Assembly: GCA_000182565.2 (NCBI GenBank)
Contig: KQ257462.1
DNA from: Spizellomyces punctatus DAOM BR117
Taxonomy: Eukaryota
Reading direction: 5' to 3' (one strand)
Length of the DNA: 64,000 nt
The position numbers were made by a program, and so were the translations under genes. Below, piece after piece: positions 45,864 to 61,666 of this stretch (position 1 is its first letter; the number at the start of each line of letters is the position of its first letter). The notes beneath the pieces are model-generated. The model was not told where the DNA came from, searched no databases, and was given only the letters and a program-made list of their open reading frames with translations.

Positions 45864-48562
45864 ATGTCTCTTCCCAAGAACGCACCACCTCAGACCACAT
45901 CTCAATTTGCGACGAGGACCCAGCTAAAGGCATATCGTGACTTTACAGACCTCATCAAAAAGGAGCCAGGCCTGTTTGATACCTGGCCAGAGTTTGATGG
46001 TAACAGCTAATATCACCGAGTCTCTTTGCACGTCTTACTGATAGAGGAAGTAATTAGATGCAGAAGTGCGAAAATCTGTGACACGGGCTGACGCAACTGC
46101 AAGCGAAAGCAATTTTAGAAATGGGGGGAAAGGGCCCAATCATCCGCCCAACATGGTCCACCCCGCTCCTTTGACGTACAAGCGCGTCCAGGACCGCAAA
46201 ACGAGGCAGGGACGATTACTCTTGGTATCCTTATTGGAGAATTTCTGCACTCTGTACGATGAATCCCCGGAACGAAACAGAAGACTATTTTATGTTATAT
46301 GCAAGCAGCTTCATAGTATGGGGGTAATTGACTCGGAGGACTTTCTAGAGGAACTACATGCTGTTCGAGGAAGTTACAAACGTGCATTTCGAGACTTGGT
46401 CGTACGAGCAATGGAGGCAATTCGGGAACAAGACGATCATCGGGTCTTGGATTTCACTCCTCCGTCGCCTGAACCGGACGTGCTGCGATCGTCCGTTGTT
46501 GAGCACAGATCATCTCTGTATCGCCCAGGAAGTTCGGAGGCCCTTTCACGCAGTACCAGTTTCATTTCTTCCCGGTTGGCAAGAACAGGAGAAACATTCG
46601 CATCTGTTTGGGACATGCGCTCATCCCGTTATAGCGAAGATTTCAATGAATTGCATGTCCTTGGAAAAGGGGCTTTTGGCCAGGTGTGGAAGGTCAGAAA
46701 CCGGTTGGACAATGTTGAATACGCCGTGAAGAAGATTCCATTGAAGATGGGGATGGGAAACTTAGAGCGAATATTACGAGAAGTAAAATTTCACGCCCGG
46801 CTATCGCATACGAACGTTGTTAGATACTTTTCTGCGTGGGTAGAGGACATTCCTGTTGCTAGAAGTGCCAACCGAGGGAATCCCCCGTCCATCATTAAGG
46901 ATGACGAAGGTGATTACATTCATACTACAACGGAAACGGCGCCCAATTGTCACCAGAAAAGCACCCATAGTCCAAGATGGGAGCAAGGGCGAATTACCGA
47001 AGTGGCTACTGATATGGAAGATGCAGCTATTGAGCAAGAATATGACGATAGCATGGAGGACAGTGTGGGTCTTGTATTTGCAGAGGACGATACGGCCGAA
47101 AAAAGTCCTACGCGCCATGACGAGCAGATAGTCCCGCGGTACTCTCAACGTCAACGTCCCAGGCGCTCGTTACCGTCGCCCGAACCGGATCCGTCGGACG
47201 AAGAAAGCACCCCGAAGGGTTTCTTTCAAACCAATAGCGCCTTTTACGCTAATATCAACGAACCAGAATCGTCAGATGATGATGAGGGCGCAGACAGTTC
47301 TCTGTACATGCGAGACTCTCAAGTCGCTGCCTCTACAAACGCCCGCCCCCAGCCTGTGGCTCATCCTACTTTGCCATCCCAAGCTAGTCTTCCCGATGAC
47401 GTGGAATTGACCCTGTTTATCCAAATGGAGCTGTGTGGACAGACGTTAAGAGACTATCTCAGAGAACGTAATAGACGCGTGTCTGAGGGCAGTACTGGGG
47501 TGAGTGTATATGAATGCCGCAGGATATTTCGAGATTTAGTGGAGGGTTTAGTATATTTGCATGGATTTGGCATCATTCATCGTGATGTCAAGCCAAAGAA
47601 TGTCTATTGGAAACCCGACGACGATGCGTCAGGTAAAGGAAGTTGGAAAATTGGAGATTTTGGACTGGTAACTGCCACAGATCTAGAATGTGGGGATTTT
47701 GTTGAAGTTAATGCGCATGAATGCGAGGATGGTGCGGTTGACGGACCGGAGTACGAAAAGGGGCCAGACGCAACACCCGTACATCCAGAGTCTGGTACTC
47801 GTAATTTCGGCCGATTAGGAAACCGGAAACCTCGTCGTCAATCCGAATCTCAGTCTCAATCTCAGTCTGATCGAACTGCTGGCGTCGGAACTGTTACGGT
47901 AAATGAGCTTTCTAGCCTGATTACATTCCAGCTTTTTGCCCTTTTTCCTTCTGACCAAGTCTTCTACTATTTCAAAGTATGCATCTCCAGAACAACTCCG
48001 TCCATCTCTATCTACTCCATACACCCCTGCTTCAGATATTTATTCGCTGGGGATAATTCTCTTTGAGCTCCTCCACCCTTTCGCCACTAATATGGAACGT
48101 GCCCGAAGCTTACAAGCGCTTCGCGAGGGGGCGATGCCTGAGAAGTTTATCGAAGAATATCCTGAAGAAGCGGGATGGATCTTTTGCATGATGCGAATGG
48201 ACCCTACATCGAGGCCTGGAGCTGGTGAGATTTTAGAATGGCTTGATGAGGAAGCGTATCTTGGACGACGGCGGTCGCGTGCTACTTATAGATCTCAGAG
48301 TCAATTAAGCTTACTCGGAAGCGGGCTGGTGTCAGTGGATGGGGGAGTAGACTGCGACTCAGACACGAGCAGAAGCTCTCCCCAAAGCAGCCCTCCAAAT
48401 TCTCTGGGTGCCGAAGTACCCGTAACACCTAATGTGTCACCCTCGAAACCTTCAGTTCTTTCAGAAGCAATGTCAGACAATCTTGTATCTCAAAATGAAA
48501 TACTGAAGGCTCGAGTCGAAGAACTTGAGCGACGATTAAGGGACATGGGTGTCGCGTTTTAG
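45864..48562 (+). CDS. eIF2-alpha kinase, HRI (EIF2AK1/Hri1-2)-like
   Basis: HRI-type N-terminal LLLVSLLENFC...LFYVICKQL; SRYSEDF..LGKGAFG, YAVKKI, LSHTNVVRYFSAW, long kinase insert, LFIQMELC, HRDVKPKN, KIGDFG, GTVT|YASPEQ (intron 47899-47977), PFATNMER; first intron 46000-46057. Confidence 0.9.
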
Positions 48563-49199: not shown

Positions 49200-51534
49200 A
49201 TGTCGGCGCAAATTGTTGAAATCCCTATGGATATGCAATCCTCTCAGCCCGAAAAGCTAACGGGCAAACAGCAAGGCCAAATTGGCAGGCGCGAAATATT
49301 GGAAGAGGTCGAGCGGGCCAGTAAATGGCTCAGTGAGGCCGTTGCAAGGGACCGAAATGCCAAGGAAGCAAAGATGTTGGCGCAGAGGCGTCTCGTACAT
49401 TTCCACGAGGAAGAGGGTATGGAGTTTCTGAATTGCGTTACTCTGTAACGAAGTGTACTTAATTCTTCTTTTTTACCTCAGCCAATATATTCGAGGCCAA
49501 TCTGAAAGAAGCCCGTCAGCTCTACGAATCGCAGCTCGTTGAGCAACGTCTTGTCGAATGGCGGCAAAAGGACGCCGCGGATGACCTCCTCAAGGACGAG
49601 GAGCGCAAAACTGAACTAGTCAAGTTTGTGAACAAAATGGCTGCTCTCAAGATCAAGCTCAGACTGCAAGACGAGGCTCGAGAGCGAGAGGTTGCATTCA
49701 GGGAGAAAATCAAGATGAAGCGGGACGCACATCAGGCCCGAGTCAAGAAATTGGAAGAGCGACAAAAGAAGGAGAGAGACGAACTTTTATCAACGCAAGC
49801 CAGGATTGCAAAGGTATGATTTTACCATTGCTTTGGTGTGGCATCGTCTCTGGTGTGCTCATTCAGTTATCATTTCCTTAGAACCTGAAATTAATACAAT
49901 CTCTTGAAGTCCGAGGTATAGACGAGGCAAAGAAACGTCGTCTCCTCCGCGAGTTTGAAATCCAGTCACAACAACTTGCCATGAAGCAGCAAAAAGAAGC
50001 GGAACAGCTCCGCGAGATCCAACTTTTGAAGATTCGACACATGTCGGAGGCCGTTCAAATGGAGTTCGGCAACATGACCGAAATGGAGGAAGTCGCAGCT
50101 GAGCAGCGGTTGAAAGAGATTGAGCTGGATGCAGACAACCGACTTGCACTTCAGATGGAAGAAGAAAAGCTTGAACGTCAGCAAGCGAAGCTAAAGGCTT
50201 TACAACTCAAAGAAGAGCAAAAGATCCAGCGCAACCATTTGAAGCAAGGACAAAGGAAGCAGAGCAAGCTCCTGGAAAGGCAGCAGCGTCACGCTGCAAA
50301 GCTCCGTGAAAAGATGATGATGGCAGAAAGCGCTGCAATCCTCGGCGGCGACATGGCGATTGGTTCCGGTAACAGCGATGCCGACGGTTCAGACTCCTAC
50401 ACCGGTGACAGTGCTTCGATTGGTTCCTCTGAAGCATCCCGCTCCGAACTCGGCGCGGGTGACGACAGCGAAAACGAAATGGATGCCGAAACGCGGGCCG
50501 TGACCGAAAGCAATGCCGCAGCCGACGCCGAGGCCCGCCGCAAACGAAGCGCACGAAATGACGCCGAAAGCGAGTTAAACGAGGCGTTGAACAAAGGTCG
50601 TGAGCGTGTCAAGAATATGATCGCCCACCAGCGCAAAATGATTGAAGACCTCAAAGTCTATCACAAGGAAGTTCGAGACCAAAAGGCCCGCGAGCACAAG
50701 CGCAAGACTGCCGAAATGAACAAGGATCACGAAGACGAAATGCGCAACGTTAAGACGGAGCAAGCGCAGGAGATGGAAGAGCTTCTTGAGACCATCAGCA
50801 ACCAAGACCTTATTGCTGCCCAACAGTCATCGTTTGATAAACAAATGGACACAGTCGTGTCTAACCAGTTATTAGGAAATATGCTTCCCCGTCATGTGGC
50901 AGAGGAACTTAAAGCCGGTCGGACACCCGAGCCCGCCGCATTCGAGAACGTGGCACTCTTCTTCACCGACATTTACGGATTCAAGGAACTCGCCAACCGA
51001 TCGTCACCGCGCCAGATTGTCGCGCTCCTTAACAGGATGTACATTGCCTTTGATGAAGTGATTGCCAGGTTCCCTGATCTCTACAAGGTAGAGACCGTCA
51101 TGGATAGCTTCATGGTTTGTTCTGGATTAAGCGGAAATACCCAAAAATCTCGCCAAGACTGCATTCGTGATGCAACCATCGCCGCCGAATGCGCAATACA
51201 GCTGCTCGATGCTGTTGAAGCTATAGACATGTCTGACCAACTTGTTGAAAAGCTCAACCTCCGTATCGGTATCCAATGTGGACCGGTTCTAGCTGGTGTC
51301 ATCGGAACCAAGATGCCACATTACTGTTTGTTTGGTGATACTGTCAATACGGCCTCGCGAATGTGCTCTACCAACCAGGCCCTTAGGATTCAAGTCTCGG
51401 AGGCCATGTATGATTTGTTGAAGAATGAATACATTTTGGAGGAGCGGGGCACGATCGCTGTTAAGGGGAAGGGAGATATGAAAACCTTCTTTTTGCTTGG
51501 GCGGAAGGATAAGGTTAGTGAGCCCAACCATTGA
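49200..51534 (+). CDS. Soluble coiled-coil class III nucleotide cyclase, guanylyl-cyclase signature (paralog A)
   Basis: Introns 49417-49481, 49814-49881; long charged coiled coil; CTE LLGNMLPRHVA; FTDIYGF, YKVETVMDSF, MPHYCLFGDTVNTASRM. Confidence 0.9.
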
Positions 51535-51989
51535 TGGGAATGCTATTGGGCAGTTTAGTAAAGAGATTGAGCTCGTGGAGGTTGCGGGGTGGATTATGCA
51601 TCTATTGTTCTCGTTTTTTTTATATTCATCTCCAACAAAATATCAAAAATCCCAATTGGTCATTTGCAAATGTTTGCAATTGGGTGAAATTCTTTCGGTC
51701 TTATTCATTTTTCGATTCCCCATTGCGAAAGGAAATTCACAACAAAGGCAGACCAGGTTGATGTTAAGCTTTGGCTGACAATACGCATCCCTCAAGCAGC
51801 ACAAACGATCTTGGATCACGCATCCACTTAACCAAATAGTTCTAAAGCCGACATATGAGGCATTGTCTCCTCTACAGATGCGCGAATATGACCTGACAAA
51901 CAGCGATACAAACGGAGCAATACGGAGAGGTCACGGTTTGGTTGGCGTTAACCAAACTGGGTGTATTTATCAGGACATTTTTACGAAGA

Positions 51990-52225
51990 TAATGAGACCA
52001 TAGACCATATTTGTGCCAAGACCGATTGCCGATTACACTCTACCTCTCTGTTTCGAAGATTTCCAAGCAATAGCGCCGCCTGATAGCTTAGAAGGCATCC
52101 TGGAGTAGGCTTCTTATTTGAGAGGTCTTCTCCCCAATCTGCATCGGAATACGCTTCAAGATCGTCGCTGTTCCAGTGTGCAGTTCTTCTCAGGTACCTA
52201 AATATCCTCTTCACGCTAGTTCAGT
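51990..52225 (-). mobile_element. Degenerate Ty1/copia LTR-retrotransposon fragment (RT C-terminus / RNase H)
   Basis: KRIFRYLRRT...LEAYSDADWGEDLSNKKPTPG then, after a frameshift, SGGAIAWKSSKQR: copia RNase H motifs YxDADW and GGAIxWxSKKQ. Confidence 0.85.
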
Positions 52226-52689
52226 TGGTGTTTCCAAGAGCACCTCACAATTCTCAGCAAGTACTTTCTAGTAAGGTACAAGCTCATTAGGTAGGACTAG
52301 GTCTGGACCTTGGGTGTCCGGGGAAGGTGATTCCGCTAGAAACCAGGTTTTCTGCGTCGTCTCCTTCTTGCTATTGATGCCATCGGTCACTTTCCCAACC
52401 TTCTGATCGGGTTGTTCCCACTCCCAATCAATAGAAAAAACCCGCAATTCGGAGCACAAGCTAGCGAAATCACATATTCCTATATTTTGGAATGGGTCCA
52501 TGTCCATGAACGGAAACAAATGGGTTGAAAAGTCTTGGTATATTCAAAAACAATCGTACCCACGCACGCAGAACATGAAGACAGAAAAGCACAAAAAAAT
52601 ATACGAAGGATCTTTTACAATGCAACCCCTTCACAGCCAAGCATGTTTTTCCTATCTCAAAGGTCATCAAACTTTTACCCTGCCAGCTC

Positions 52690-54921
52690 TCACTCTACAC
52701 TTTCCAACACCCAAAACCCATCCCCCCCGTCATTTTTCTGGAACTTGAACCGGTCCCCAACCAGACTCTCTACTTCATTCGAAACCAGGATTCCACCCTT
52801 CTGGGCCCCAGCACACAACCGAGAAGCTTTGTCCACCGTGTCGCCCAACACGCGAAAATGGGGGACACGAAAGCCCACAAAGCCGGCTTTAACTTTACCA
52901 CAGTGGATACCGATCTTAAGGTTAATGGATTCTTGGATTCCCAGATCGGATCTAGAGAGGGTTGCCGTTGCTTGTGTGAGTTGTTGGGCGCAGGTGATAG
53001 CTGTGGAAATTGCCTCGGTGATTTGCGAAGGGGATGGAGGGGTATCGGTTAAGCCAACGCACAGGATATAGCCATCTGCAACACTTTCAACCTGGTAGAC
53101 TCCTTCGCATTTGGCGATAATGTCGTCAAAGATGGCGTAGAGTCTTTGGAGAAGCTGGATCATTTGTTTGGCAGTGTATTGGGTAGGTCCTGCGAGGGCG
53201 GTTCGGATGGTTACGGCGTTATCGTAGGTGGTTGGGGCGGGTGTCTGGCCGGCTTTGAGAAGAGAGGCAAAGTGAGGAGGCATGGTGTTTCCTGCAAGTT
53301 TCATGGTGGATATCTCGGGCTCGGCTTTATGTGCATTGATGAGCGCGGTTTGCTCAGCGTGGAGCTCCTGGTACTTTTTAATCATGTCAAACAGTTCTTC
53401 CATATCGGTTGCTTGTTCTGCTCGAATGGTTTGAACTTCTTCTTCTTGCTCTTTTAGAAGGCTTGCTTGTTTGCGTTTGAGCTCGCGAACTTTTTGGTCC
53501 CGTTGGTCCTTATGTTGCAATTTGAGGGATTCGTAGAGCTCCTTGTGGTGCGCTTCGAGTTTTGTGAGTCTTTCCTGGCCTTTTTGGAGGGCCTCAAGAA
53601 GCTCGGTGGCAGCGTCTTTGTTTGAACGCTGTTTTCGTTTGCGGTCGGCTTCGGATCCCTGGACAATGGCCTGGATTTCGGATTCGTCTAGTTCGTGTTC
53701 CATGTGCTCCACGTTACCACCGTCCGTGGAGGAGACTACGTCGGACGTATCTACCTCTGAGGTACCCGCAAAGGAGGATTGGTTGTCCACATCTCGTTCT
53801 TGCTTTTGATGGAAACTGTTGCCGACTTCGGCCATCATGGCTGATGTCTCATCAATGACTGCTCGCTCCCGGATTCTCGCACTCGCCTTTTGATTCCGGT
53901 CGAGCCCCCTCCGCTGCCGATTCTGATAAGAAAGCAATTGGGCTTGAGCGGTTTTTTGCTCTTCTTTGAGTTGGAGAGCTTTGAGCTGGGCCTGTTGGCG
54001 GTCAAGTTTGGCGGCTTCGCTGCTGCGTTCAAGGGTTTGATTCGCGACCAGGGCGTTTTCTCTGAGGGTTTGCTCGGCGAGAAGGTCTTCGAGGTCGCTG
54101 GAAGAAAGGAGATCGAGTTCCATTTGCTCAGACATGTGCCGGAGTTTGATGAGCTACGATATGAGTTTCATTTATAATGAGGCTCTGTGTACCGGAGCGA
54201 AAAGAGAAGCTTTAACTAACCTGCAACTCTCTCAACTGTTCCGCTTCCTTTTGCTGCCTCATAGCCAATTGCTGATATTGCAACTCATATTCCTGAGCCC
54301 GACCCCGTAACTCCATCTCCCCTAACCCCCTCATTTCGAGGGCGTGAATCATTTTCAAGTTTCTCGCAACACGCTCCTGGGTTTTGATCAACTCGCTCCT
54401 TTCCGTTACTTGCGATACTTGGATGGTCTTGGTACGCTTCTCGAATGCTTCGCGTTTCTGTTTCTGTTTGGCACGGAAATCGAGCTCGCGTTCCCTTGCC
54501 TGGTCTTGCTGGGTAGCGTGTGCTTTGAAGGCGGCGATTTTCGATACCATGGCGATGAGTTCTCTTTTGCGAGTTTCGCAGGAGATGAGATCTGCGGCGG
54601 CTTCCCGTTGTCGGTCTTGCACCAGGCGTTGTTCGATAAGTTGTTGTTCATACAGCTGTCGGGCTTCTTTAAGGTTGCCTTCAAAAATGCTTACTGTGGG
54701 ATGTGTAATGTTAATAATGTACAAAACGAAATGTTTTTGGTAAAATATTGCAAATTTCTGTACTGACCTTCTTCCTCTTGGAAGGCTCCCATCCGCCTTT
54801 GAGCGGCAAGCTTTTGCTCCTTGATCTCACGATCGCGACGTAGAGTCGTCACAACAAACTTGTTGTGCGCTTCAACAGCAGACAGCTGCGTAGGCTGCTG
54901 GGGCAAGACATCTGTAGACAT
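52690..54921 (-). CDS. Soluble coiled-coil class III cyclase paralog B, catalytically degenerate (pseudo-cyclase)
   Basis: Introns 54767-54694, 54220-54154; coiled coil alignable to paralog A (IFEGNLKEARQLYEQQL, QQKEAEQLRELQL); cyclase fold with TIRTALAG (no first Asp), YQVESVADGY, HFRVLGDTVDKASRL. Confidence 0.85.
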
Positions 54922-56259
54922 GATGATTCTTTTGGACAAATGTTGCAAACGAGTATTTAGGTATGATATCCAACAGTTTCAAATAGACAAATCCAGATGG
55001 ATATAGCCAAAGGTGTGCTTTTATGGAGAAACCCTAGTTCAAGAAAATGGCGGCACTAGGAACTAGTTCACTTGTTGCAAAAACCCCAAACTCGAATATT
55101 TCACATCAACATAGGCATAAAAACAGGGGAGAAACCGCCTCCCATTGTACAATTGTATACAGACCAAACAGAATGTGAAGAGCCTCGAGGGGACCTACGC
55201 CCCCACCAGAACCTCACCGTGAAAAGCCTCGCCCAGCAAAACCTGAACGTTGTTGAGCAGCAGTAGCAAAGCGAACAATACCATTTACCAGCTTAAAAGC
55301 TGGAGTATTTGGCAAATGTCTTGCATCCCTTAAGGGCTGCTTTGAGCGTCGTCACACGGGTGTACGCCATAGGCAACATTGTTGTTTGTCATGATGAGGA
55401 TTTTGAGTGCGCGATATGCAATGTGCCCTGGTATTGTTTCCTCGGCAGGCTTATTCAGCGTTTGTTTGCATTTTGTAAGGCCAAGAACCCGAGCCACGTT
55501 CTCCGGCATAACTAGTGTCAACAAACTCACAACAACAGTACCTGCCGACCTCACTGTTAATTTTCAGTGTCTTTTTGTTGCGTCGTCGAGGCCTTGCATG
55601 TCCTCTTTTCAAAGCGTATTGTCTCCCATGAAAGATATGCCGGAGATACCTAGACATCATCTCAAAGGAACATTTAACAAAGCGACTCGAAGACAATCCA
55701 TCAATCCATCCAGTGTAGCGCCTCCTCTTTGACAGCCGTTGAATGGATACCCTATTCAAACCTTTGAGATGCGAGTCTTTGGTCCAACACCCAGAGACAT
55801 TTCGCGCCCGTGCCGAAGCACCCTCAGGGTGAAATCCAGTGGGGGACACATTACCAAATCAAAACACAATGGGAATGGGAGACATGGCGGGTTGTTCAAC
55901 GTCGCAGGTATAACTCACATACAGGGGCAGTCAACAATGGGTTTTGTCAAAGGTCCAGGCTTTTGTAGGAGGCGAGTGTGTTGCATTCAGCATCTCTTAT
56001 TGTGTCTAGATTTCGTGAGTGTGGAACGGTTCTTGAAGTGTGCAGTGGGGGTGGGGCTTTGCCTCTGTTCTACTGCAAATTTCTAGAGTTTTCAGTGATA
56101 TCTCAAGCTTTGAGAAGTATAAATCCTCCCCTGACGGGATTTCGCTTTCTTTGCTGATTTTGGAGCTTTCTCTTGGAGGAGCTCATTATATTGTCCCAAT
56201 TTTTCCTCCAACTCAAGGACAAGTATCACATCTCCCTCTGCAAGTTTATTATTGCAGCA

Positions 56260-58653
56260 ATGTCAACAGCAACCGACATGATCGTCCCTACGGCCGGTGG
56301 AGCCCTGGCAGCCCAATCCAGCGGCCACGCCGGCACAGGCGCTGTAACGCACACGCACCAAACAGACCATGAACTCGAACGCATCTTGACACTCATGAAG
56401 GTGGAAGACCAAGCCCTGGCTCTCGCTCTCGAAAAAGAGCGCGCAAGCATGGAATCCACCATGGAACGGATTCACCGTTTAAACAATTTCCGGATTGACG
56501 AAGCTCACATTCGGGAGTCGAATATTGCTGAGAGTCGGTTCTTGGTTGATGCGCAAGATGCTGAGCGTAAGGCACTAACTGTTCGTGAGGCTGAGGAAGC
56601 TGCATCGTTGAAAGAAGAAGAGGAGGACAAGCGCATGTTGGAGATGCTGTTGAGGGAGTTGAGGACACTTAAATTGGGTGTGAGGCAAAAAGCAGAAGCT
56701 TCTGAAAAAGTGATGGCGGTTAAGAAACGATTAGCTGAGAGGCGGACCGCGAATCAGTTGAGGCTGGTAGGAGTAGAGGTCAGACAGGAGAGAGAGAGAA
56801 AGGCGTTGCAAGATAGCCATGTCAGGATTATCAAGGTTTGCATTTTTTTGTTTTGTTTATGGCCATCCATGGGTATTTAACAATGTTCTCGTTATGAAAC
56901 TTAGAACATGAACATGTTCCGCACTCTCCTCTTACAAGATATTGAAGACGCAGCTCTCGACAACCTCATCGCAAACGGCAGTATGTCAGATGATGGAACA
57001 GTTTCCCAAAAAGGAACTGACAGAGCTGACGCCGACAAGCTGCACCAAACCAAAATGCTCCAACTCAAGCTCCGGATGCAGAAAGAAGTTGAACAACTCC
57101 GAGAAGAGCACCTCATGAAACTTAAGCACATGATGAAAGTGTGTGAACTCGAATTGGAACAAACGGAAGAAATTGAAACCTTGATGGCCGAGCAAAAAAT
57201 TCAGGAAATGGAAGTCGAGACGGAACAAAGAAAGGAAATTGAGAATGAAGAGGACCAAATTGCTCAACAGCGAGCGAGTTTAAAGGCGTTTCACACGCAG
57301 CGAGCGCTTCAAGCCAAAGCATCCCGGACGCTCGCTCATCAACGGTACGAAGCAAGACAATTGGCCCGTCAACAAAAAATTGCTGCCAAACAACGCGAGC
57401 GGCAGTTTTTCGCATCCGAGGAGGCTCTCCGCGAAAGCATGCGAGCAATGTCTCAAGAGGAACAGGAAGAAGACGAAGCGAGCTCCCAAGTCTCTGGTCA
57501 TATTAAATCAAGCAAACCCGGCTCAGCCCGTCATTCTGTCGCAGGATTATCCGAAATCAGTTCAACAGACCAGAGCGAAATATCTGACATTACAACTGAC
57601 TCGCACGCCGATACGGCCATTGGTGACGACGCAGAAGCATCCGAAAGCGCCCAAGCGGTCGAAAGCGTCGAACTTGAAGAACAAATTCGCAAAGAACGCT
57701 CTAGGATTGAGGAACTGACTAAACGACACTATGCAGCCATGGAGGCTCTCCGCATCCAACAGCGCGAACTTCGCGAAATCACCAAACGAGAGCATGCTAC
57801 TCAAATGAACCGCCTCCTGGGCGAACAAGAAGATGAATACAAACAACTCAAAATTCAACACCACCATGAAACAGAAGCATTATTGAGCACCCAAAGCGCT
57901 GCAAATGCCCTCGAAGAAGACAATAAAGGCGCTAATGAATTGCTGTATGGAATGCTCCCCCGTTACGTGGCGGATGCAATGAAGATGGGCCACGAGATCC
58001 CACCCAAAGATTTCGAAACAGTAACGATTCTCTATAGCGATATCGTCCAATTCACAAACCTAACCGCGAAATCGTCGCCAAACCAAATCGTCAACCTCCT
58101 CAACAGATTGTATACGGCTTTTGATTCCGCGTTGGATGACTATGCGGATTTATATAAAACAGAGACCATTGGGGATGCATACCAGATCGTTGCGGGGTTG
58201 AATCAAGAATCAGAACAAGGAGGACGTGAAGCCGTTATTCGACGAAATGCAATGGATACCATTGACTGTGCGCTCAGATTCTTGACAGAAATCCGGAACC
58301 TCGACATGACGGACCAAGTCATGCGTGATTTGCATATCCGCATTGGAATCCATTCTGGGCCGTGTGTGGGCGGTGTTGCTGGAGTGACGATGCCAAAGTT
58401 TGCGATTTTTGGGGATACGGTGAATATCGCGAATCAGATGGAACAAAAGTCGAAGCCGAATCGTATTCATATCAGTCAGGCTACTTACGACTTGGTAAAG
58501 GACGCGCCGTTTGTGTTTGAAAAAGTGGAGGGTGCAGTTGTGTTGGAAGGTGGAGTTACTTGCCAGACGTATTGGGTGACGGGACGCAAGGATAGTGCTG
58601 CAAAAGTGGCTACTGCGGGTGGAAAAAAGAAGGCGAGGGTGGTGCTTCAGTAA
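56260..58653 (+). CDS. Soluble coiled-coil class III cyclase paralog C
   Basis: Intron 56836-56904; coiled coil (MQKEVEQLREEHLMKLKHM); CTE LLYGMLPRYVA; YSDIVQF, YKTETIGDAY, MPKFAIFGDTVNIANQM. Confidence 0.9.
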
Positions 58654-58883
58654 GAAAACTTCCCATACAAACTTTGTTGGGGATAAAGGATCGTGGGAAC
58701 TCTATCGAAATTTACACATCTTCAGTCTTCTGGTGTTGCTTAAAACGTTCAAAGTGAGTCAAGGTGCAATACCTTGGCATCATGCCCAAAGTTCACATAA
58801 AACAAACAAAAATGTTATTCTCCAAAAGCCCATCTCATGTATTAAAAAGTCCGATAATACAGTCCCGCTCATCAACAACAAAA

Positions 58884-58976
58884 CTAGACAAACCCAACCA
58901 AATCCCAAATCATCGTCTCACTCAAATCCCCAAACATAGCTTGCAAGAACTGGTCCTCATGTGATGGTGCAGGCCC

Positions 58977-59012
<36 letters not shown>

Positions 59013-61666
59013 TTGTTGCTGTTGTTGTTGCTGATGTTGCTGATGTTGATGTAGTTGTTGCTGAGGTGGGGGTGCATGATGTAATCCATGCACGGTTTGT
59101 TGAGTAAGGTTCGGTGGTGGCACATTATATGGAGGATTAAGGAGAGGTTGGTTATTGTACATGACTGGAATGTGTGGTACAGATGGGGGCATCATCTGGA
59201 TATAGTTGACTGGTGGTGGACGGGCAGTGGTGATGCGAAGGGGTGCGGTAGACAGCGGGGGGCCTGGTATGGAAGAAGAGATGGGTAAAGGAACAGGGTC
59301 TGGTCGTTTCACGTCATCAACATCTTGCGCCCACTGTCGGCGCTTTTCCACAGCCCAGGGACGGAGACGGGATTGTATGCCGCGGGCTTCGAGGGTTTCC
59401 GCCATGACGCCGATAAAGCCTTTCATGATGGGGTGTCTAACGGCAAGGTGTTCCAAGAGGCCGTGCATGCGTTCCATGCGTTCGTGAGCGACCATGTCGC
59501 CGGTCATGACGTCGGATAGGAGTGCATCCCAGGCTGTCGTGAATGCTGTGGGGATATTGACAAAGAGAAAGGAGACGCCGCCAATAGAGAGAGATCGGCC
59601 GTCGGTCGTACTGGATATAGGTGGTGTGATGGGAGAGGATGAACAAGTCGAGTCGAGCTCCTCGCCGGTTGACGCGAGGGTTTCCAGAATTTCAACGAGG
59701 GCGGCGCTCGAGCGACGGGACTCGGCGTCGTAGCGGCCCAAGAGAGCTCGGCGCGACGAGAGGACAATGAGGTGCCATGTCACATGAAGGGATTCGCGCC
59801 GGGTGAATTTGCGTCCTGTGGTGCCTCCACCAGCTCCAGCGCCGTTTTTGGGTAATCGGAGTAGAGGGGGTAGACCCTCTCTCCACAATTCGAGACGGGT
59901 TTGAATTTCTTCAACAAGTTCTTTACCGCCTTCGGCTCGATTAACGCGGCCCTTTTTCCAGGTAGCTCGCGCCGAATTGGCGCGTTTCATGACGAGGCCA
60001 GCGATTTCCATGAGGGATGTGTGGTGCCGGAGGTACTCTGCGTCTGCACGCTCTTCTTCCACTTCGGAAAATCCTTGTGGCCACGGAGTGTCCCTGTTTT
60101 TGTTCTGCGCCTTAGCTTGCCTGTAGTTACAAGTGCACCAACATGGACCTACCAGTCGTCATCCGCCACCATCATGGGCCTTCCGGTAGCCATACTAGCA
60201 TATCTCTCGAGAATGTACGCTCCAAACCAGGTTCTTCGTCGCGTTTCTTCGGTCGCTGTGGGATCATTTAATCGAATGGGACGCCGAATATCTTGCAAAT
60301 TCCGATGCAAGCCCAATTCCTGAGCGGCACGGACACCCGCCCCAGTCAACCGCCACCGATTGATGAACGCATTTCCCTTTCCCGATCCGCAAAGTGACAA
60401 GACAAGGTACGCCTGTGTGATCCACACATGCGGCGCTTCGTACTCTAACGTAACTTCTCGTGCTCTGTCTGTCAATTCTTCTACATCGTTTGCAGACAGT
60501 CCACAGCGTTCTGAGTTTGGCATGTGGTGTACTACGACCACAAGGACTGCGTACAAGAGGGCACGAAATGGGAGCGAGTCCGGTCCCTCGGCCAGAGTCC
60601 GAAAGTAGCTGGCGCGGTCAATGATGGGAAGAAAGGGGTGTACGAGTTGAAAGTAGGTTGTCGACAGACGCATAATTTGGTCATAGGAAAAGGGAAGGTG
60701 CTTACTGAGGGCAGTAGGTTGGTAGGGTGACGAGGGCGTGTTAGCTTGGGAGGGTATATTGAATGGGAGGGTGATCAGACCGTCCCTATATCGCGGAGAT
60801 TGATTCAAGTATGTTGCAGCTTGAAAGATTGAAAGGAAATGCGTTCAGGATAAAGGAAGGTCAATGTCAGACACACTTAATCACTCACATCGCCCATAAT
60901 ACATTAGAAAACTCCCACTGAGGTCCATGCACAATAAATTTCCACTGGGTATCAGTCGAGGTCTCCTCCATGGCGGTTCTTCAGCGGTTTCGGATGCTTC
61001 GGCTGACGCGCCCTCCCAGGGCCGTGTTGAAGAGGCACCTTGTATATCTGAACCGTCTGCCGAGGTCGTTGGGTCGGTGGATGGGTCGCCTTGACTCCCT
61101 GGAGGTATGCCTGCTGCGAGCAGTGATTCCATCATTTTGAGTCTGAAGAATACTAAGTGTTAACTTTCCGTGGCTTCCCCACACGCATCTGCATAGAGTT
61201 GTTCGCACCTATTCTCCAGGGTTTTTATGGTATTCTTTCTGATGGGACCTCTCTTTTTGGTAGTGTCACTGTAGTGGCAAACAAACCCAAATGCCCTGCA
61301 GCCGGAACAAGGGTACTCTCCAGAGCACTTTGTTCGCTTTTTTCTACATGTATCGCAAGCCTTTGACGCGCGTGTTCTCTTTGGCTGATTGTGATGCAGT
61401 AGCTGCTGTTGGTGGTTCTGTTGCTGATCCTGTTGCTGTTGTTGCAGTTGTTGTTGTTGCTGAGCATGCTGCTGCTGCATTTCGTTGGCGAAATTGTTGT
61501 AGCTGTGGTGGTTGTGGTGACCACTACCGTGAGCCGACGGAGAGGGAGAAGCTGGAGACTCCATTGGCGGACCGTTTGGAGTTGTGAGAGGGGGCGGGGA
61601 TGTCTCTGACTGGGAGTCATATCCTTGTGAAGCCGCGAGGTTTTGTTGTCGTTGTTGTTGCTCCAT
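58884..61666 (-). CDS. Zn(II)2Cys6 fungal transcription factor with fungal-specific middle homology domain and polyQ tracts
   Basis: ACDTCRKKRTKCSGEYPCSGCRAFGFVCHY; YFQLVHPFLPIIDR, AQELGLHR, EETRRRTWF..YILERYASMATGRP; several introns. Confidence 0.92.
58978..59062. repeat. (CAA/CAG/CAT)n trinucleotide repeat encoding polyQ in the Zn2Cys6 TF C-terminus
   Basis: ttg/ctg/atg triplet run on + strand; second polyQ run near 61400-61480. Confidence 0.85.

What the first reader, a model, noticed from the sequence alone, without database searches (positions are those of the whole stretch)
49200..58653. Tandem trio of soluble coiled-coil guanylyl-cyclase paralogs with complementary catalytic losses (candidate heteromeric cGMP system)
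Seen: three adjacent genes (+, -, +) share one architecture: ~450-550 aa charged coiled coil with an acidic Ser-rich hinge, a cyclase-transducer element and one class III domain, with no TM, HNOX, PAS, kinase or rhodopsin domain. Established: class III active sites form at a dimer interface, one protomer giving two metal-binding Asp, the other giving the specificity residues (Glu+Cys in guanylyl cyclases) and the transition-state Asn/Arg; animal sGC splits these between alpha and beta. Seen: A (49200-51534) has E (KVE), C (YCLFGD), N and R (VNTASR) and both Asp but the second in an atypical VMDSF context, i.e. beta-like; C (56260-58653) has canonical SDI and IGDAY but FAIFGD (Cys->Ala) and VNIANQ (Arg->Gln), i.e. 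alpha-like; B (52690-54921) lacks the first Asp (TIRTALAG) and the Asn (TVDKASR), i.e. a pseudo-cyclase. Inference: an obligate heterodimeric A:C guanylyl cyclase assembled via the coiled coils, with B as a regulatory/decoy partner, arisen independently of animal sGC.
Basis: partly seen in the sequence, partly recalled or inferred. Interest (0 to 1): 0.85.

Follow-up and report, generated by a model that had tools for sequence, protein, structure and literature searches.

The report
Three coiled-coil guanylyl cyclase paralogs, one complete
A soil chytrid fungus carries three neighbouring genes for sensor-less cGMP-making enzymes, of which one looks complete, one keeps only the metal-binding half of the active site (like the alpha subunit of the animal nitric-oxide receptor) and one looks catalytically dead, so they probably work as mixed pairs.

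Summary
The window is Spizellomyces punctatus; genes A (SPPG_06831, 733 aa), B (696 aa) and C (SPPG_06833, 774 aa) lie at the stated coordinates. Each has about 500 aa of charged helix with an acidic Ser-rich break, then one class III cyclase domain. Pfam finds no other domain, and there is no membrane segment.

Scored on the eight catalytic positions tabulated for sGC and AC, the losses are not complementary:
- A keeps all eight, in 11 of 11 close orthologs, so it is not beta-like.
- C keeps the four alpha/C1-type residues in 21 of 21 orthologs. No ortholog has the base Cys, phosphate Arg or phosphate Lys. C is the ortholog of Blastocladiella BeGC2, so this alpha-like state predates the Blastocladiomycota-Chytridiomycota split and arose apart from animal sGC alpha.
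- B is a fast-evolving duplicate of A, found only in Spizellomycetales-type species. It is defective on both half-sites, but its helical part is as conserved as A's.

Best reading: A is a self-sufficient cyclase, C must borrow a partner's half-site (most likely A's), and B is a non-catalytic coiled-coil partner. Heterodimerisation itself is not shown; the complex prediction gave only weak support. This is a new variant of a known principle and can be tested directly.

The parts
49200..51534 (+). Gene A (SPPG_06831), 733 aa. Exons 49200-49416, 49482-49813 and 49882-51534. Introns 49417-49481 and 49814-49881.
   Evidence: The spliced translation is identical to P0001. GT..AG introns of 65 and 68 nt. 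RNA-library contigs lie on it in runs X1 and X2.
50938..51498 (+). Class III cyclase domain of A, with all eight catalytic positions intact: D546, E587, D591, R644, C665, N672, R676, K711.
   Evidence: PF00211 at E 9.3e-55. Aligned to NPR1 chains at E 7.7e-51. Residue table; codon coordinates.
50326..50505 (+). Acidic Ser/Thr/Gly-rich break in the helical region of A (residues 332-391).
   Evidence: It is the richest S/T/D/E/G 60-aa window, 38 of 60 residues. Composition by 50-aa blocks.
52690..54921 (-). Gene B, 696 aa. Exons 54921-54768, 54693-54221 and 54153-52690. Introns 54694-54767 and 54154-54220.
   Evidence: Model. Collinear with P0121 of S. 'palustris'. Both introns are seen as joints in RNA-library contigs: 54153/54221 in X1 and X2, and 54693/54768 in X2.
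52732..53181 (-). Degenerate cyclase-like domain of B: A528, E565, D569, K622, R643, D650, R654, and no equivalent of the phosphate Lys.
   Evidence: PF00211 at E 6.1e-25, a partial match to profile positions 25-165 of 183. Residues.
53677..53856 (-). Acidic Ser/Thr-rich break in the helical region of B (residues 309-368).
   Evidence: It is the richest S/T/D/E/G 60-aa window, 33 of 60 residues.
56260..58653 (+). Gene C (SPPG_06833), 774 aa, ortholog of Blastocladiella emersonii BeGC2. Exons 56260-56835 and 56905-58653. Intron 56836-56904.
   Evidence: The spliced translation is identical to P0127. P0142 = H9P43_007348 sits in the same clade with 100 support. That gene is named BeGC2 in PMC9730499 (passages).
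58003..58581 (+). Alpha-like cyclase domain of C. It keeps D571, E612, D616, R671 and N699. It has lost the Cys (A692), the phosphate Arg (Q703) and the phosphate Lys (E740).
   Evidence: PF00211 at E 6.9e-48. Residues. The fold is modelled at residues 560-753.
57454..57666 (+). Disordered acidic Ser-rich break of C (residues 376-446).
   Evidence: AlphaFold2 pLDDT is below 50 at 376-398 and 400-446. The richest S/T/D/E/G window is at residues 375-434.
54922..56259 (.). Spacer of 1338 bp between the divergently transcribed genes B and C. It may be a shared promoter region (inference only).
   Evidence: Gene models. An RNA-library contig of C starts at 56204 (X1 record 5).
51535..52689 (.). Spacer of 1155 bp between the convergent 3' ends of A and B. 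It holds their 3' UTRs.
   Evidence: In run X12, sense reads pile up at 51238-51905 (+) and 52574-52907 (-).

Best explanation
The locus encodes three soluble members of a coiled-coil guanylyl cyclase family found in flagellated opisthokonts. The family has no recognisable sensor domain.

A is a complete class III guanylyl cyclase and should be active as a homodimer.

C belongs to the BeGC2 orthogroup and is a half-enzyme. It can supply the two metal-binding Asp and the phosphate Arg. It cannot supply the Cys, the transition-state/phosphate Arg or the phosphate Lys. It can therefore make cGMP only in a head-to-tail dimer with a protomer that supplies those residues. The complete paralog A is the obvious candidate. 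Such a dimer would have one working site and one degenerate site, as in animal sGC alpha/beta and in mammalian AC C1/C2.

B is a later duplicate of A that cannot complete a site from either side. Selection has kept its helical part, so B most likely joins A or C through the coiled coil as a non-catalytic partner that titrates or scaffolds them.

The cGMP made would feed the BeCNG1-type channel that S. punctatus retains although it lacks the rhodopsin cyclase.

Shown here: gene structures, residue states, their conservation, the phylogeny, and transcription and splicing of B. Inferred: who pairs with whom, activity, and the downstream target.
For: 1. Roles of the eight positions come from Table 1 and text of PMC6005667 (passages). 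Alpha/C1 gives Metal1, Metal3 and Phosphate4. Beta/C2 gives Base2, Base5, Ribose6, Phosphate7 and Phosphate8.

2. C clade, 21 sequences from Spizellomycetales-type species, Rhizophlyctidales, Cladochytrium, Blastocladiella and Allomyces:
- Metal1 is D in 21/21, Base2 is E in 21/21, Metal3 is D in 21/21, Phosphate4 is R in 21/21.
- Base5 is never Cys (A 20, S 1).
- Phosphate7 is never Arg (Q 16, L 3, I 1, V 1).
- Phosphate8 is never Lys (E 20, D 1).
- Ribose6 is N in only 9/21.
Invariant metal residues beside a lost opposite half are what a subunit that works only in trans would show. The two sGC alpha-2 rows in the same alignment show the same kind of pattern (N->T, R->K, K->P).

3. A keeps all eight positions in 11/11 Spizellomycetales/Rhizophlyctidales orthologs.

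4. Every species label with a C-type protein in the listings also had an A-clade protein. The exceptions are P. arcticum, S. 'palustris', Cladochytrium tenue, Allomyces javanicus and A. macrogynus, where none was listed. The listings are capped.

5. B (9 sequences, 8 species labels): Metal1 is never Asp, Phosphate4 is R in 1/9, Base5 is never Cys, Ribose6 is N in 1/9, Phosphate8 is absent in 9/9.

6. Identity of S. punctatus B to four orthologs is 53-56% in the helical part but 34-37% in the cyclase part. The same figures are 49-70% and 73-80% for A, and 62-65% and 67-72% for C.

7. Trees. The C clade has 100 support. The A superclade has 99-100. B (100) joins the Spizellomycetales/Rhizophlyctidales A group at 85 on the domain tree and 93 on the full-length tree.

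8. B is transcribed and spliced. All three genes carry RNA-library contigs.

9. The complex prediction of A 440-733 with C 470-774 gave weak support: ipSAE 0.53 against a best control of 0.00.
- Calibration of the mark: it was reached by 51 of 78 solved complexes and 2 of 108 mismatched pairs. At 0.60 or under it was reached by only 5 of those 78 and by all 4 mismatches that passed (of 180).
- This run: the runs agree in at least 91% of contacts, and the partner's pLDDT is at least 78. The alignments were not used.

10. S. punctatus has the BeCNG1 channel but no CyclOp (PMC9616733, passages).

11. Other members of the family show further one-sided losses:
- beta-like: P0262 SEDQCNRK, P0038 GEDCSNRK, P0041 KEDRCNRK;
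- alpha-like: P0278 DEDRCTQH.
Against: No result here shows that A and C bind each other, or that either is active.

The complex prediction is only 'weak support'. Class III cyclase dimers are solved, so the score may reflect likeness to those structures. It cannot tell A:C from A:A or C:C.

A keeps its own metal residues, so it does not need C. Chytridiales species have A-like proteins with full residue sets and no listed C-clade member, so A-type enzymes evidently work without C.

The three genes are not linked in most relatives. Only S. 'palustris' (g01123/g01124) and P. arcticum show B and C on one contig.

In A, the residue two before the Cys is His, where canonical guanylyl cyclases have Arg (11/11 in its clade). 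GTP specificity of A is therefore inferred, not certain.

Run X12 shows reads antisense to the body of C. I cannot explain them.
Confidence: 0.55

Rival explanations
1. There are no heteromers. Each paralog forms only homodimers. A is the sole enzyme. C and B are pseudoenzymes that have taken on a non-catalytic role, such as scaffold or nucleotide-binding sensor, through their helical regions.
For: C lacks three and B lacks five of the eight catalytic positions. The long helical parts of C and B are well conserved: C-clade mean column identity is 54%, and the B helical part is 53-56% identical to orthologs. A is self-sufficient on sequence. Binding of A to C has only weak computed support.
Against: A pure scaffold has no reason to keep both metal Asp, the Glu and the phosphate Arg in 21 of 21 sequences across two phyla while losing exactly the opposite half-site. 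B shows what relaxed constraint on these positions looks like.
Confidence: 0.2
2. A and C are mutually obligate, like sGC beta and alpha. A is inactive alone because its second metal Asp sits in a Met-Asp context and the Arg next to the Cys is His.
For: The Gly before the second metal Asp is replaced in A (Met). The Arg two before the Cys is His in 11/11 close A orthologs. C keeps the canonical Gly-Asp in 21/21.
Against: All eight catalytic positions of A are intact in 11/11 orthologs. The residue before the Asp varies freely across the A superclade (M, G, L, Q, S, A). That includes Chytridiales species for which no C-clade protein was listed, so it is not a marker of dependence on C. Truly beta-like members of the family look different: they have lost Metal1 and/or Phosphate4 (P0262, P0038, P0041).
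Confidence: 0.1
3. C is a heterodimer subunit, but its partner is a cyclase encoded elsewhere in the genome and not A. The adjacency of A and C is incidental.
For: A, B and C are on different contigs in several relatives (contig lengths). In B. emersonii the A-like gene H9P43_007205 and BeGC2 H9P43_007348 are about 140 locus tags apart. The rest of the S. punctatus cyclase repertoire could not be examined.
Against: A is the closest complete paralog. It shares the same helical architecture, with conserved blocks that align in register with C. Partners from other cyclase families would lack a matching coiled coil.
Confidence: 0.1
4. B and C are decaying gene copies (neutral loss) with no function.
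For: Catalytic residues are missing. B has long branches (stem 1.3, 0.76).
Against: Reading frames are intact across introns. B is spliced in RNA. C is 62-67% identical across Spizellomycetales and 43-46% identical to Blastocladiomycota orthologs, with the same substitutions throughout. B is kept in 8 species labels with a conserved helical part.
Confidence: 0.02

Closest known systems
Animal NO-sensitive soluble guanylyl cyclase (alpha/beta heterodimer)
   Same: Both are soluble proteins in which a coiled coil leads into one class III domain per chain. One subunit type keeps the metal Asp pair and the phosphate Arg but has lost the ribose/phosphate residues of the other half-site. C behaves like alpha. 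Two sGC alpha-2 rows in my alignment show N->T, R->K and K->P. Residue roles are from PMC6005667.
   Different: No H-NOX, PAS or HNOBA domain is present; Pfam finds only PF00211. The candidate partner A is not beta-like, since it keeps Metal1 and Phosphate4. C has lost the Cys, which sGC alpha keeps. The C clade is separate from the sGC rows in the tree, so the asymmetry arose independently.
BeGC2 of Blastocladiella emersonii (H9P43_007348)
   Same: It is the ortholog of C: 46% identity, E 1.4e-132, in the same clade with 100 support. It has the same residue pattern, D E D R A N Q E.
   Different: In print it is listed simply as a predicted guanylyl cyclase, on the basis of the YKVET and MPRYCL motifs (PMC9730499, passages). 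That text does not contain the word 'heterodimer' (0 occurrences). I did not see the original 2009 description by Vieira et al.; I know it only through this citation.
Chytrid rhodopsin-guanylyl cyclase heterodimers (RGC1/2 with NeoR)
   Same: These are class III guanylyl cyclases of zoosporic fungi, joined by a coiled-coil linker, that work only as heterodimers. The isolated NeoR cyclase domain is inactive and the RGC1 domain is active (PMC7655827, passages; PMC10622942, section 9).
   Different: Those proteins carry a membrane rhodopsin sensor. A, B and C have no TM segment. According to that paper the cyclase domains of all RGCs, NeoR included, are highly conserved. I saw no catalytic half-site loss described in the passages I read. 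S. punctatus is reported to lack this system (PMC9616733).
Mammalian membrane adenylyl cyclase C1/C2 pseudo-heterodimer
   Same: The eight catalytic positions are divided between two homologous domains in the same way, leaving one active and one degenerate site (Table 1 of PMC6005667).
   Different: There the two halves are fused in one membrane protein and specify ATP (Lys/Asp). Here they are separate soluble gene products with Glu at the base position.

Membership tests
Class III nucleotidyl cyclase (Pfam PF00211) | Significant match to the catalytic domain profile | tested here: met
   A scores 185.5 bits, C 163.1 bits and B 88.3 bits (partial, profile positions 25-165). The curated cut-off is 21.9 bits.
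Class III nucleotidyl cyclase (Pfam PF00211) | Full set of eight catalytic residues: two metal Asp, two base residues, ribose Asn, and phosphate Arg, Arg and Lys | tested here: inconclusive
   A has 8 of 8, C has 5 of 8 and B has 3 of 8. The feature is met for A only. C and B are members by fold and descent, not as complete enzymes.
Guanylyl (not adenylyl) cyclase specificity | Glu at Base2 and Cys at Base5 | tested here: inconclusive
   A has Glu587 and Cys665, so the feature is met. C has Glu with Ala. B has Glu with Arg. The Arg two before the Cys in canonical GCs is His in A and B and Lys in C. The role of that third residue is recalled from the literature, not from a call. No activity assay was done.
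Animal-type heterodimeric sGC | H-NOX and HNOBA/PAS sensor domains | tested here: not met
   Neither PF07700 nor PF07701 was found in any exon, even at E<=1. Animal sGC hits do carry them.
Animal-type heterodimeric sGC | Alpha-type subunit: keeps Metal1, Metal3 and Phosphate4; has lost Ribose6, Phosphate7 and Phosphate8 | tested here: met
   For C, Phosphate7 and Phosphate8 are lost in 21/21, Ribose6 is lost in 12/21, and the alpha-type residues are kept in 21/21. This is a functional likeness only. The tree puts C apart from sGC alpha.
Animal-type heterodimeric sGC | Beta-type subunit: has lost Metal1 and Phosphate4; keeps Base5, Ribose6, Phosphate7 and Phosphate8 | tested here: not met
   A keeps Metal1 (D546) and Phosphate4 (R644) in 11/11 orthologs. 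B has lost them but has also lost Base5, Ribose6 and Phosphate8.
Rhodopsin-guanylyl cyclase (CyclOp / RGC / NeoR) | N-terminal seven-helix rhodopsin domain | tested here: not met
   There is no Pfam rhodopsin match. The maximum hydropathy over 19 residues is 1.17 or less and lies in the cyclase core.
BeGC2 orthogroup | Monophyly with H9P43_007348 and collinear full-length architecture | tested here: met
   C groups with P0142 at 100 support on both trees. The alignment covers 89% of the 582-aa query.
Physical A:C heterodimer | The two chains bind each other | tested here: inconclusive
   Complex prediction gave weak support, 0.53 against a best control of 0.00. Solved class III dimers exist, so the score may come from likeness to them. 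No experiment was possible.

The most novel reading that the evidence does not exclude
The sensor-less coiled-coil guanylyl cyclases of flagellated opisthokonts may be a combinatorial system. On this reading, complete, alpha-like, beta-like and dead subunits have evolved repeatedly, and they assemble through a conserved, register-matched coiled coil into dimers with two, one or no active sites. In Spizellomyces the mix of A2, A:C and B-containing dimers would set cGMP output to the BeCNG1 channel of the zoospore, replacing the lost rhodopsin cyclase. The degenerate site of A:C would serve as an allosteric nucleotide site, as in sGC. The alpha-like BeGC2 lineage would then be a second, independent and equally ancient invention of the sGC principle.
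Probability: 0.3. Interest if true: 0.7.

Novelty: new variant of a known kind. Interest (0 to 1): 0.55.

Why it matters
Asymmetric class III cyclase dimers, with one working site and one degenerate regulatory site, are central to animal NO signalling and to hormone-regulated cAMP synthesis. An independent and ancient case in early-diverging fungi, with separate genes for a complete, a half and a dead subunit, would show that this design is a recurrent outcome of duplicating a homodimeric cyclase.

It would also give a simple soluble system for studying how the half-sites and the coiled coil decide partner choice.

In addition, it offers a concrete source of cGMP for the zoospore cGMP-gated channel in chytrids that lack the rhodopsin cyclase. 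And it cautions that BeGC2-type genes, counted as guanylyl cyclases in genome surveys, are unlikely to be active on their own.

Tried and rejected
**Unavailable or failed calls**
- The listing of cluster members, to find the S. 'palustris' copy of A and the S. punctatus record of B, was unavailable.
- The genome search 'own', to list all cyclases of the genome, failed because no genome is held.
- As a result, synteny beyond contig lengths and locus tags, the full cyclase repertoire and dN/dS could not be done.

**Searches that found nothing useful**
- Pfam at E<=1 on the helical parts found nothing, apart from a 12-bit chance match.
- The ESM Atlas search on C residues 1-520 gave a top score of 0.81, which is noise level by the tool's own calibration, with generic coiled-coil clusters.
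- The word-index search with B returned only 8 proteins. Its 8000 scored candidates were evidently mostly unrelated charged helices, so the range of B may be wider than seen.

**RNA reads**
- Only about 6 in 100 reads of raw-read run X12 were read, and 467 were laid.
- No joint was listed for the introns of A or C, so their splicing rests on identity with the database proteins.
- Depths are too low and too 3'-biased to compare expression of the three genes.

**Ideas rejected**
- That the trio arose by recent tandem triplication. The A/C split predates the divergence of Blastocladiomycota and Chytridiomycota.
- That A's Met-Asp context marks it as beta-like. That position varies throughout the A superclade.

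I obtained the coordinates from residue numbers and alignment columns instead.

Full report
**What is there**

The window is from Spizellomyces punctatus DAOM BR117. The spliced product of the first gene is identical to SPPG_06831 (P0001, 733 aa). That of the third gene is identical to SPPG_06833 (P0127, 774 aa).

The gene models use canonical GT..AG introns of 65-74 nt:
- A (+): 49200-49416, 49482-49813, 49882-51534.
- B (-): 54921-54768, 54693-54221, 54153-52690.
- C (+): 56260-56835, 56905-58653.

B (696 aa) did not come back as an S. punctatus record. It is collinear with the annotated 695-aa protein of Spizellomyces 'palustris' (P0121; 91%; alignment). Both its introns appear as joints in contigs of RNA libraries: 54153/54221 in runs X1 and X2, and 54693/54768 in X2. 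All three genes carry contigs from those libraries. X1's RNA label is the tool's guess, and X2 is a root metatranscriptome.

A and B converge, with a 1155-bp spacer. B and C diverge, with a 1338-bp spacer.

**Architecture**

Pfam finds one family in each gene, PF00211. It finds nothing in the N-terminal parts even at E<=1. No stretch is hydrophobic enough for a membrane helix (maximum 1.17, inside the cyclase core).

The first ~500 residues are 40-60% E/K/R/D/Q with almost no Pro or Gly. They are broken once by an S/T/D/E/G-rich stretch. AlphaFold2 of C, using a 19-sequence alignment (mean pLDDT 68.9), gives three long helices (37-205, 230-379, 443-542). It also gives a disordered stretch at 376-446 and a short helix at 545-552, followed by the cyclase fold at 560-753. 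Whether the helices form a dimeric coiled coil was not tested. The model is of a single chain.

The three proteins align over their whole length: A-B 42%, A-C 32%, B-C 26%. They share intron positions. A intron 1 and B intron 1 are at the same place and phase. A intron 2 and C intron 1 are at the same place and phase.

**Catalytic residues**

I scored the eight positions that Table 1 of PMC6005667 lists for AC C1/C2 and sGC alpha/beta (passages). The alpha/C1 side gives Metal1, Metal3 and Phosphate4. The beta/C2 side gives Base2, Base5, Ribose6, Phosphate7 and Phosphate8.

| Position | A | C | B |
|---|---|---|---|
| Metal1 | D546 | D571 | A528 |
| Base2 | E587 | E612 | E565 |
| Metal3 | D591 | D616 | D569 |
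| Phosphate4 | R644 | R671 | K622 |
| Base5 | C665 | A692 | R643 |
| Ribose6 | N672 | N699 | D650 |
| Phosphate7 | R676 | Q703 | R654 |
| Phosphate8 | K711 | E740 | no counterpart |

Its summary does not. A is complete, not beta-like. C has lost only beta-type residues. B is defective on both sides.

**Are the losses conserved?**

I searched with each last exon and with a profile of the C clade against 1.84 billion representatives.

In the 21 sequences of the C clade:
- The four residues Metal1, Base2, Metal3 and Phosphate4 are invariant (21/21 each).
- Base5 is never Cys (A 20, S 1).
- Phosphate7 is never Arg (Q 16, L 3, I 1, V 1).
- Phosphate8 is never Lys (E 20, D 1).
- Ribose6 is Asn in 9/21.

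The clade holds Spizellomycetales, Rhizophlyctidales (two paralogs each in Rhizophlyctis rosea and Borealophlyctis), Cladochytrium tenue, Blastocladiella emersonii and three Allomyces species. Orders were checked for five species; the rest are recalled.

The B. emersonii member, H9P43_007348 (P0142), is the gene named BeGC2 in PMC9730499 (passages). That paper counts it as a predicted guanylyl cyclase from the YKVET and MPRYCL motifs. Its text does not contain the word 'heterodimer'.

The close orthologs of A keep all eight residues (11/11). The 28 Chytridiales A-like sequences almost all do so as well (26-28 of 28 per position).

The 9 B-type sequences come from 8 species labels. All are Spizellomycetales, apart from Phlyctochytrium arcticum. 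NCBI files P. arcticum under Chytridiales, but its proteins sit among the Spizellomycetales proteins in both trees. At nearly every catalytic position the B sequences vary among themselves.

**Phylogeny**

On the cyclase part (85 rows, quick IQ-TREE, SH-aLRT only):
- The C clade has 100 support, with a stem of 0.75.
- The A superclade has 100 support. It holds a Blastocladiomycota group, a Chytridiales group and a Spizellomycetales/Rhizophlyctidales group.
- The B clade (100, stem 1.3) joins the last of these at 85.

The tool warned of long branches meeting at B. I therefore rebuilt the tree on full-length proteins (34 rows, 725 columns). There B (100) is sister to the Spizellomycetales/Rhizophlyctidales A group at 93, inside the A superclade (99). 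C (100) lies outside it.

Both the A and the C clades hold Blastocladiomycota and Chytridiomycota. The A/C duplication therefore predates their split, and B is a later duplicate of A.

Three sequences from EukProt sets labelled Opistho-2 and Colp12 share the full architecture and root the fungal clades. From recall, these are unicellular holozoans. The animal sGC alpha rows lie elsewhere in the tree, so the alpha-like state of C is an independent invention.

**Where selection acts on B**

Identity of the S. punctatus protein to four orthologs was compared by region:

| Protein | Helical part | Cyclase part |
|---|---|---|
| A | 49-70% | 73-80% |
| B | 53-56% | 34-37% |
| C | 62-65% | 67-72% |

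B is thus constrained mainly in its helices, which fits a partner or scaffold role and not an enzyme.

**Mechanism**

Class III sites form at the interface of a head-to-tail dimer, with each protomer giving one half (PMC6005667). A subunit that keeps its metal and phosphate-4 residues invariant for this long, while never having the opposite half, makes sense only if it completes a site with a partner that has that half. In this genome region, and in the family, A is that partner.

An A:C dimer would have one competent site: C's Asp571, Asp616 and Arg671 with A's Glu, Cys, Asn, Arg and Lys. Its other site would be degenerate. A2 would have two competent sites. No dimer containing B would gain a full site from B. 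These steps are inference.

The one complex prediction allowed (A 440-733 with C 470-774) returned 'weak support':
- The score was 0.53 against a best control of 0.00.
- In the tool's calibration the mark was reached by 51 of 78 solved complexes and 2 of 108 mismatches. At 0.60 or under it was reached by only 5 of those 78 and by all 4 mismatches that passed (of 180).
- In this run, contacts agree in at least 91% between runs, and the partner's pLDDT is at least 78. My alignments were not used.

Class III dimers are solved, so this shows likeness at most. It cannot rank A:C against A:A or C:C.

**Wider pattern**

The representative search turned up further one-sided forms in the same coiled-coil family.
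- Beta-like:
  - P0262, S-E-D-Q-C-N-R-K; its nearest named relative is A, at 34%.
  - P0038 of Blastocladiella britannica, G-E-D-C-S-N-R-K.
  - P0041 (Colp12), K-E-D-R-C-N-R-K.
- Alpha-like, arising within the Chytridiales A-like group: P0278, D-E-D-R-C-T-Q-H, 65% identical to an Irineochytrium protein.
- Several heavily degenerate forms.

This suggests that asymmetric dimers are a habit of the family.

**Context**

PMC9616733 (passages) reports that S. punctatus has the BeCNG1 channel but not the rhodopsin-cyclase fusion. PMC4046227 (passages) links cGMP, guanylyl cyclase activity and BeCNG1 to zoospore biogenesis and swimming in Blastocladiella. A non-rhodopsin cyclase such as A or A:C is therefore a reasonable cGMP source for the channel. 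This is inference.

Heterodimeric cyclases are already known in chytrids, namely RGC1/2 with NeoR. I read passages of PMC7655827 and section 9 of PMC10622942. I saw PMC12264004 and PMC8815786 only as search listings. Those proteins are membrane rhodopsin fusions. The paper describes their cyclase domains as highly conserved.

No paper in the searched library names SPPG_06831, SPPG_06832 or SPPG_06833 (0 papers). 'BeGC2' or 'BeGC3' occurs in one paper. A search for guanylyl cyclase, chytrid, coiled-coil, zoospore and cGMP gave 15 papers, 14 of them listed. By title and abstract, most of them concern rhodopsin cyclases or genome surveys. Supplements of these papers were not read and may hold alignments that bear on this.

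**Limits**

- Linkage is not conserved. Only S. 'palustris' (tags g01123 and g01124) and P. arcticum show B and C together.
- The search listings are capped and word-indexed, so absence of a clade from a species is weak evidence.
- The trees are quick searches without bootstraps.
- No activity, binding or expression level was measured.

**Verdict**

The solid new point is that the BeGC2/C lineage is an ancient, conserved, alpha-like half-cyclase. It sits beside a complete paralog and a dead one. This is a new variant of the sGC and AC C1/C2 principle in a sensor-less fungal family.

Noticed in passing
window 56582-58251 (- strand reads over gene C): In raw-read RNA run X12, first mates lie in sense on the 3' ends of A, B and the downstream (-) gene. 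Over the body of C they lie on the - strand (depth 1.8-4.5), that is, antisense to C. This could be read-through from the downstream (-) gene or a separate antisense transcript. Only 467 reads were laid.
   Followed up: no
window 46066-48562 (+): The upstream neighbour is an eIF2-alpha kinase of the heme-regulated (HRI) type. It matches PF22949 (HRI helical domain) at E 2.5e-28, plus a protein kinase domain split over two reading frames, so it holds at least one intron.
   Followed up: partly
window 58884-60808 (-): The downstream neighbour has a fungal-specific transcription factor domain (PF04082, E 5.8e-22) and a long Gln-rich tail. Poly-T loose ends at 58815 and 58818 in run X12 mark its poly(A) site, about 160 nt beyond the stop codon of C on the opposite strand, so the two 3' ends overlap or abut.
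   Followed up: partly
proteins P0262, P0038, P0041, P0294, P0278: Other members of the coiled-coil cyclase family show further one-sided losses. Beta-like forms lack Metal1 and/or Phosphate4. A second, independently derived alpha-like form lies inside the Chytridiales A-like group. Most of these are unnamed representatives, so their species and partners are unknown.
   Followed up: partly
A His663 / B His641 / C Lys690 (two residues before the Base5 position): The Arg of the canonical MPRYCLFG motif is His in all 11 Spizellomycetales/Rhizophlyctidales A orthologs and in one Blastocladiella paralog. It is Lys in most C orthologs, and Arg in the Blastocladiomycota C orthologs. From recall, this Arg belongs to the guanine-specifying triad, so nucleotide specificity may differ from textbook guanylyl cyclases.
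   Followed up: no
Phlyctochytrium arcticum proteins P0031 and P0129: NCBI files this species under Chytridiales. Its B-type and C-type proteins nevertheless sit among the Spizellomycetales proteins in both trees. C is 67% identical to the S. punctatus protein. The taxonomic filing looks outdated.
   Followed up: partly
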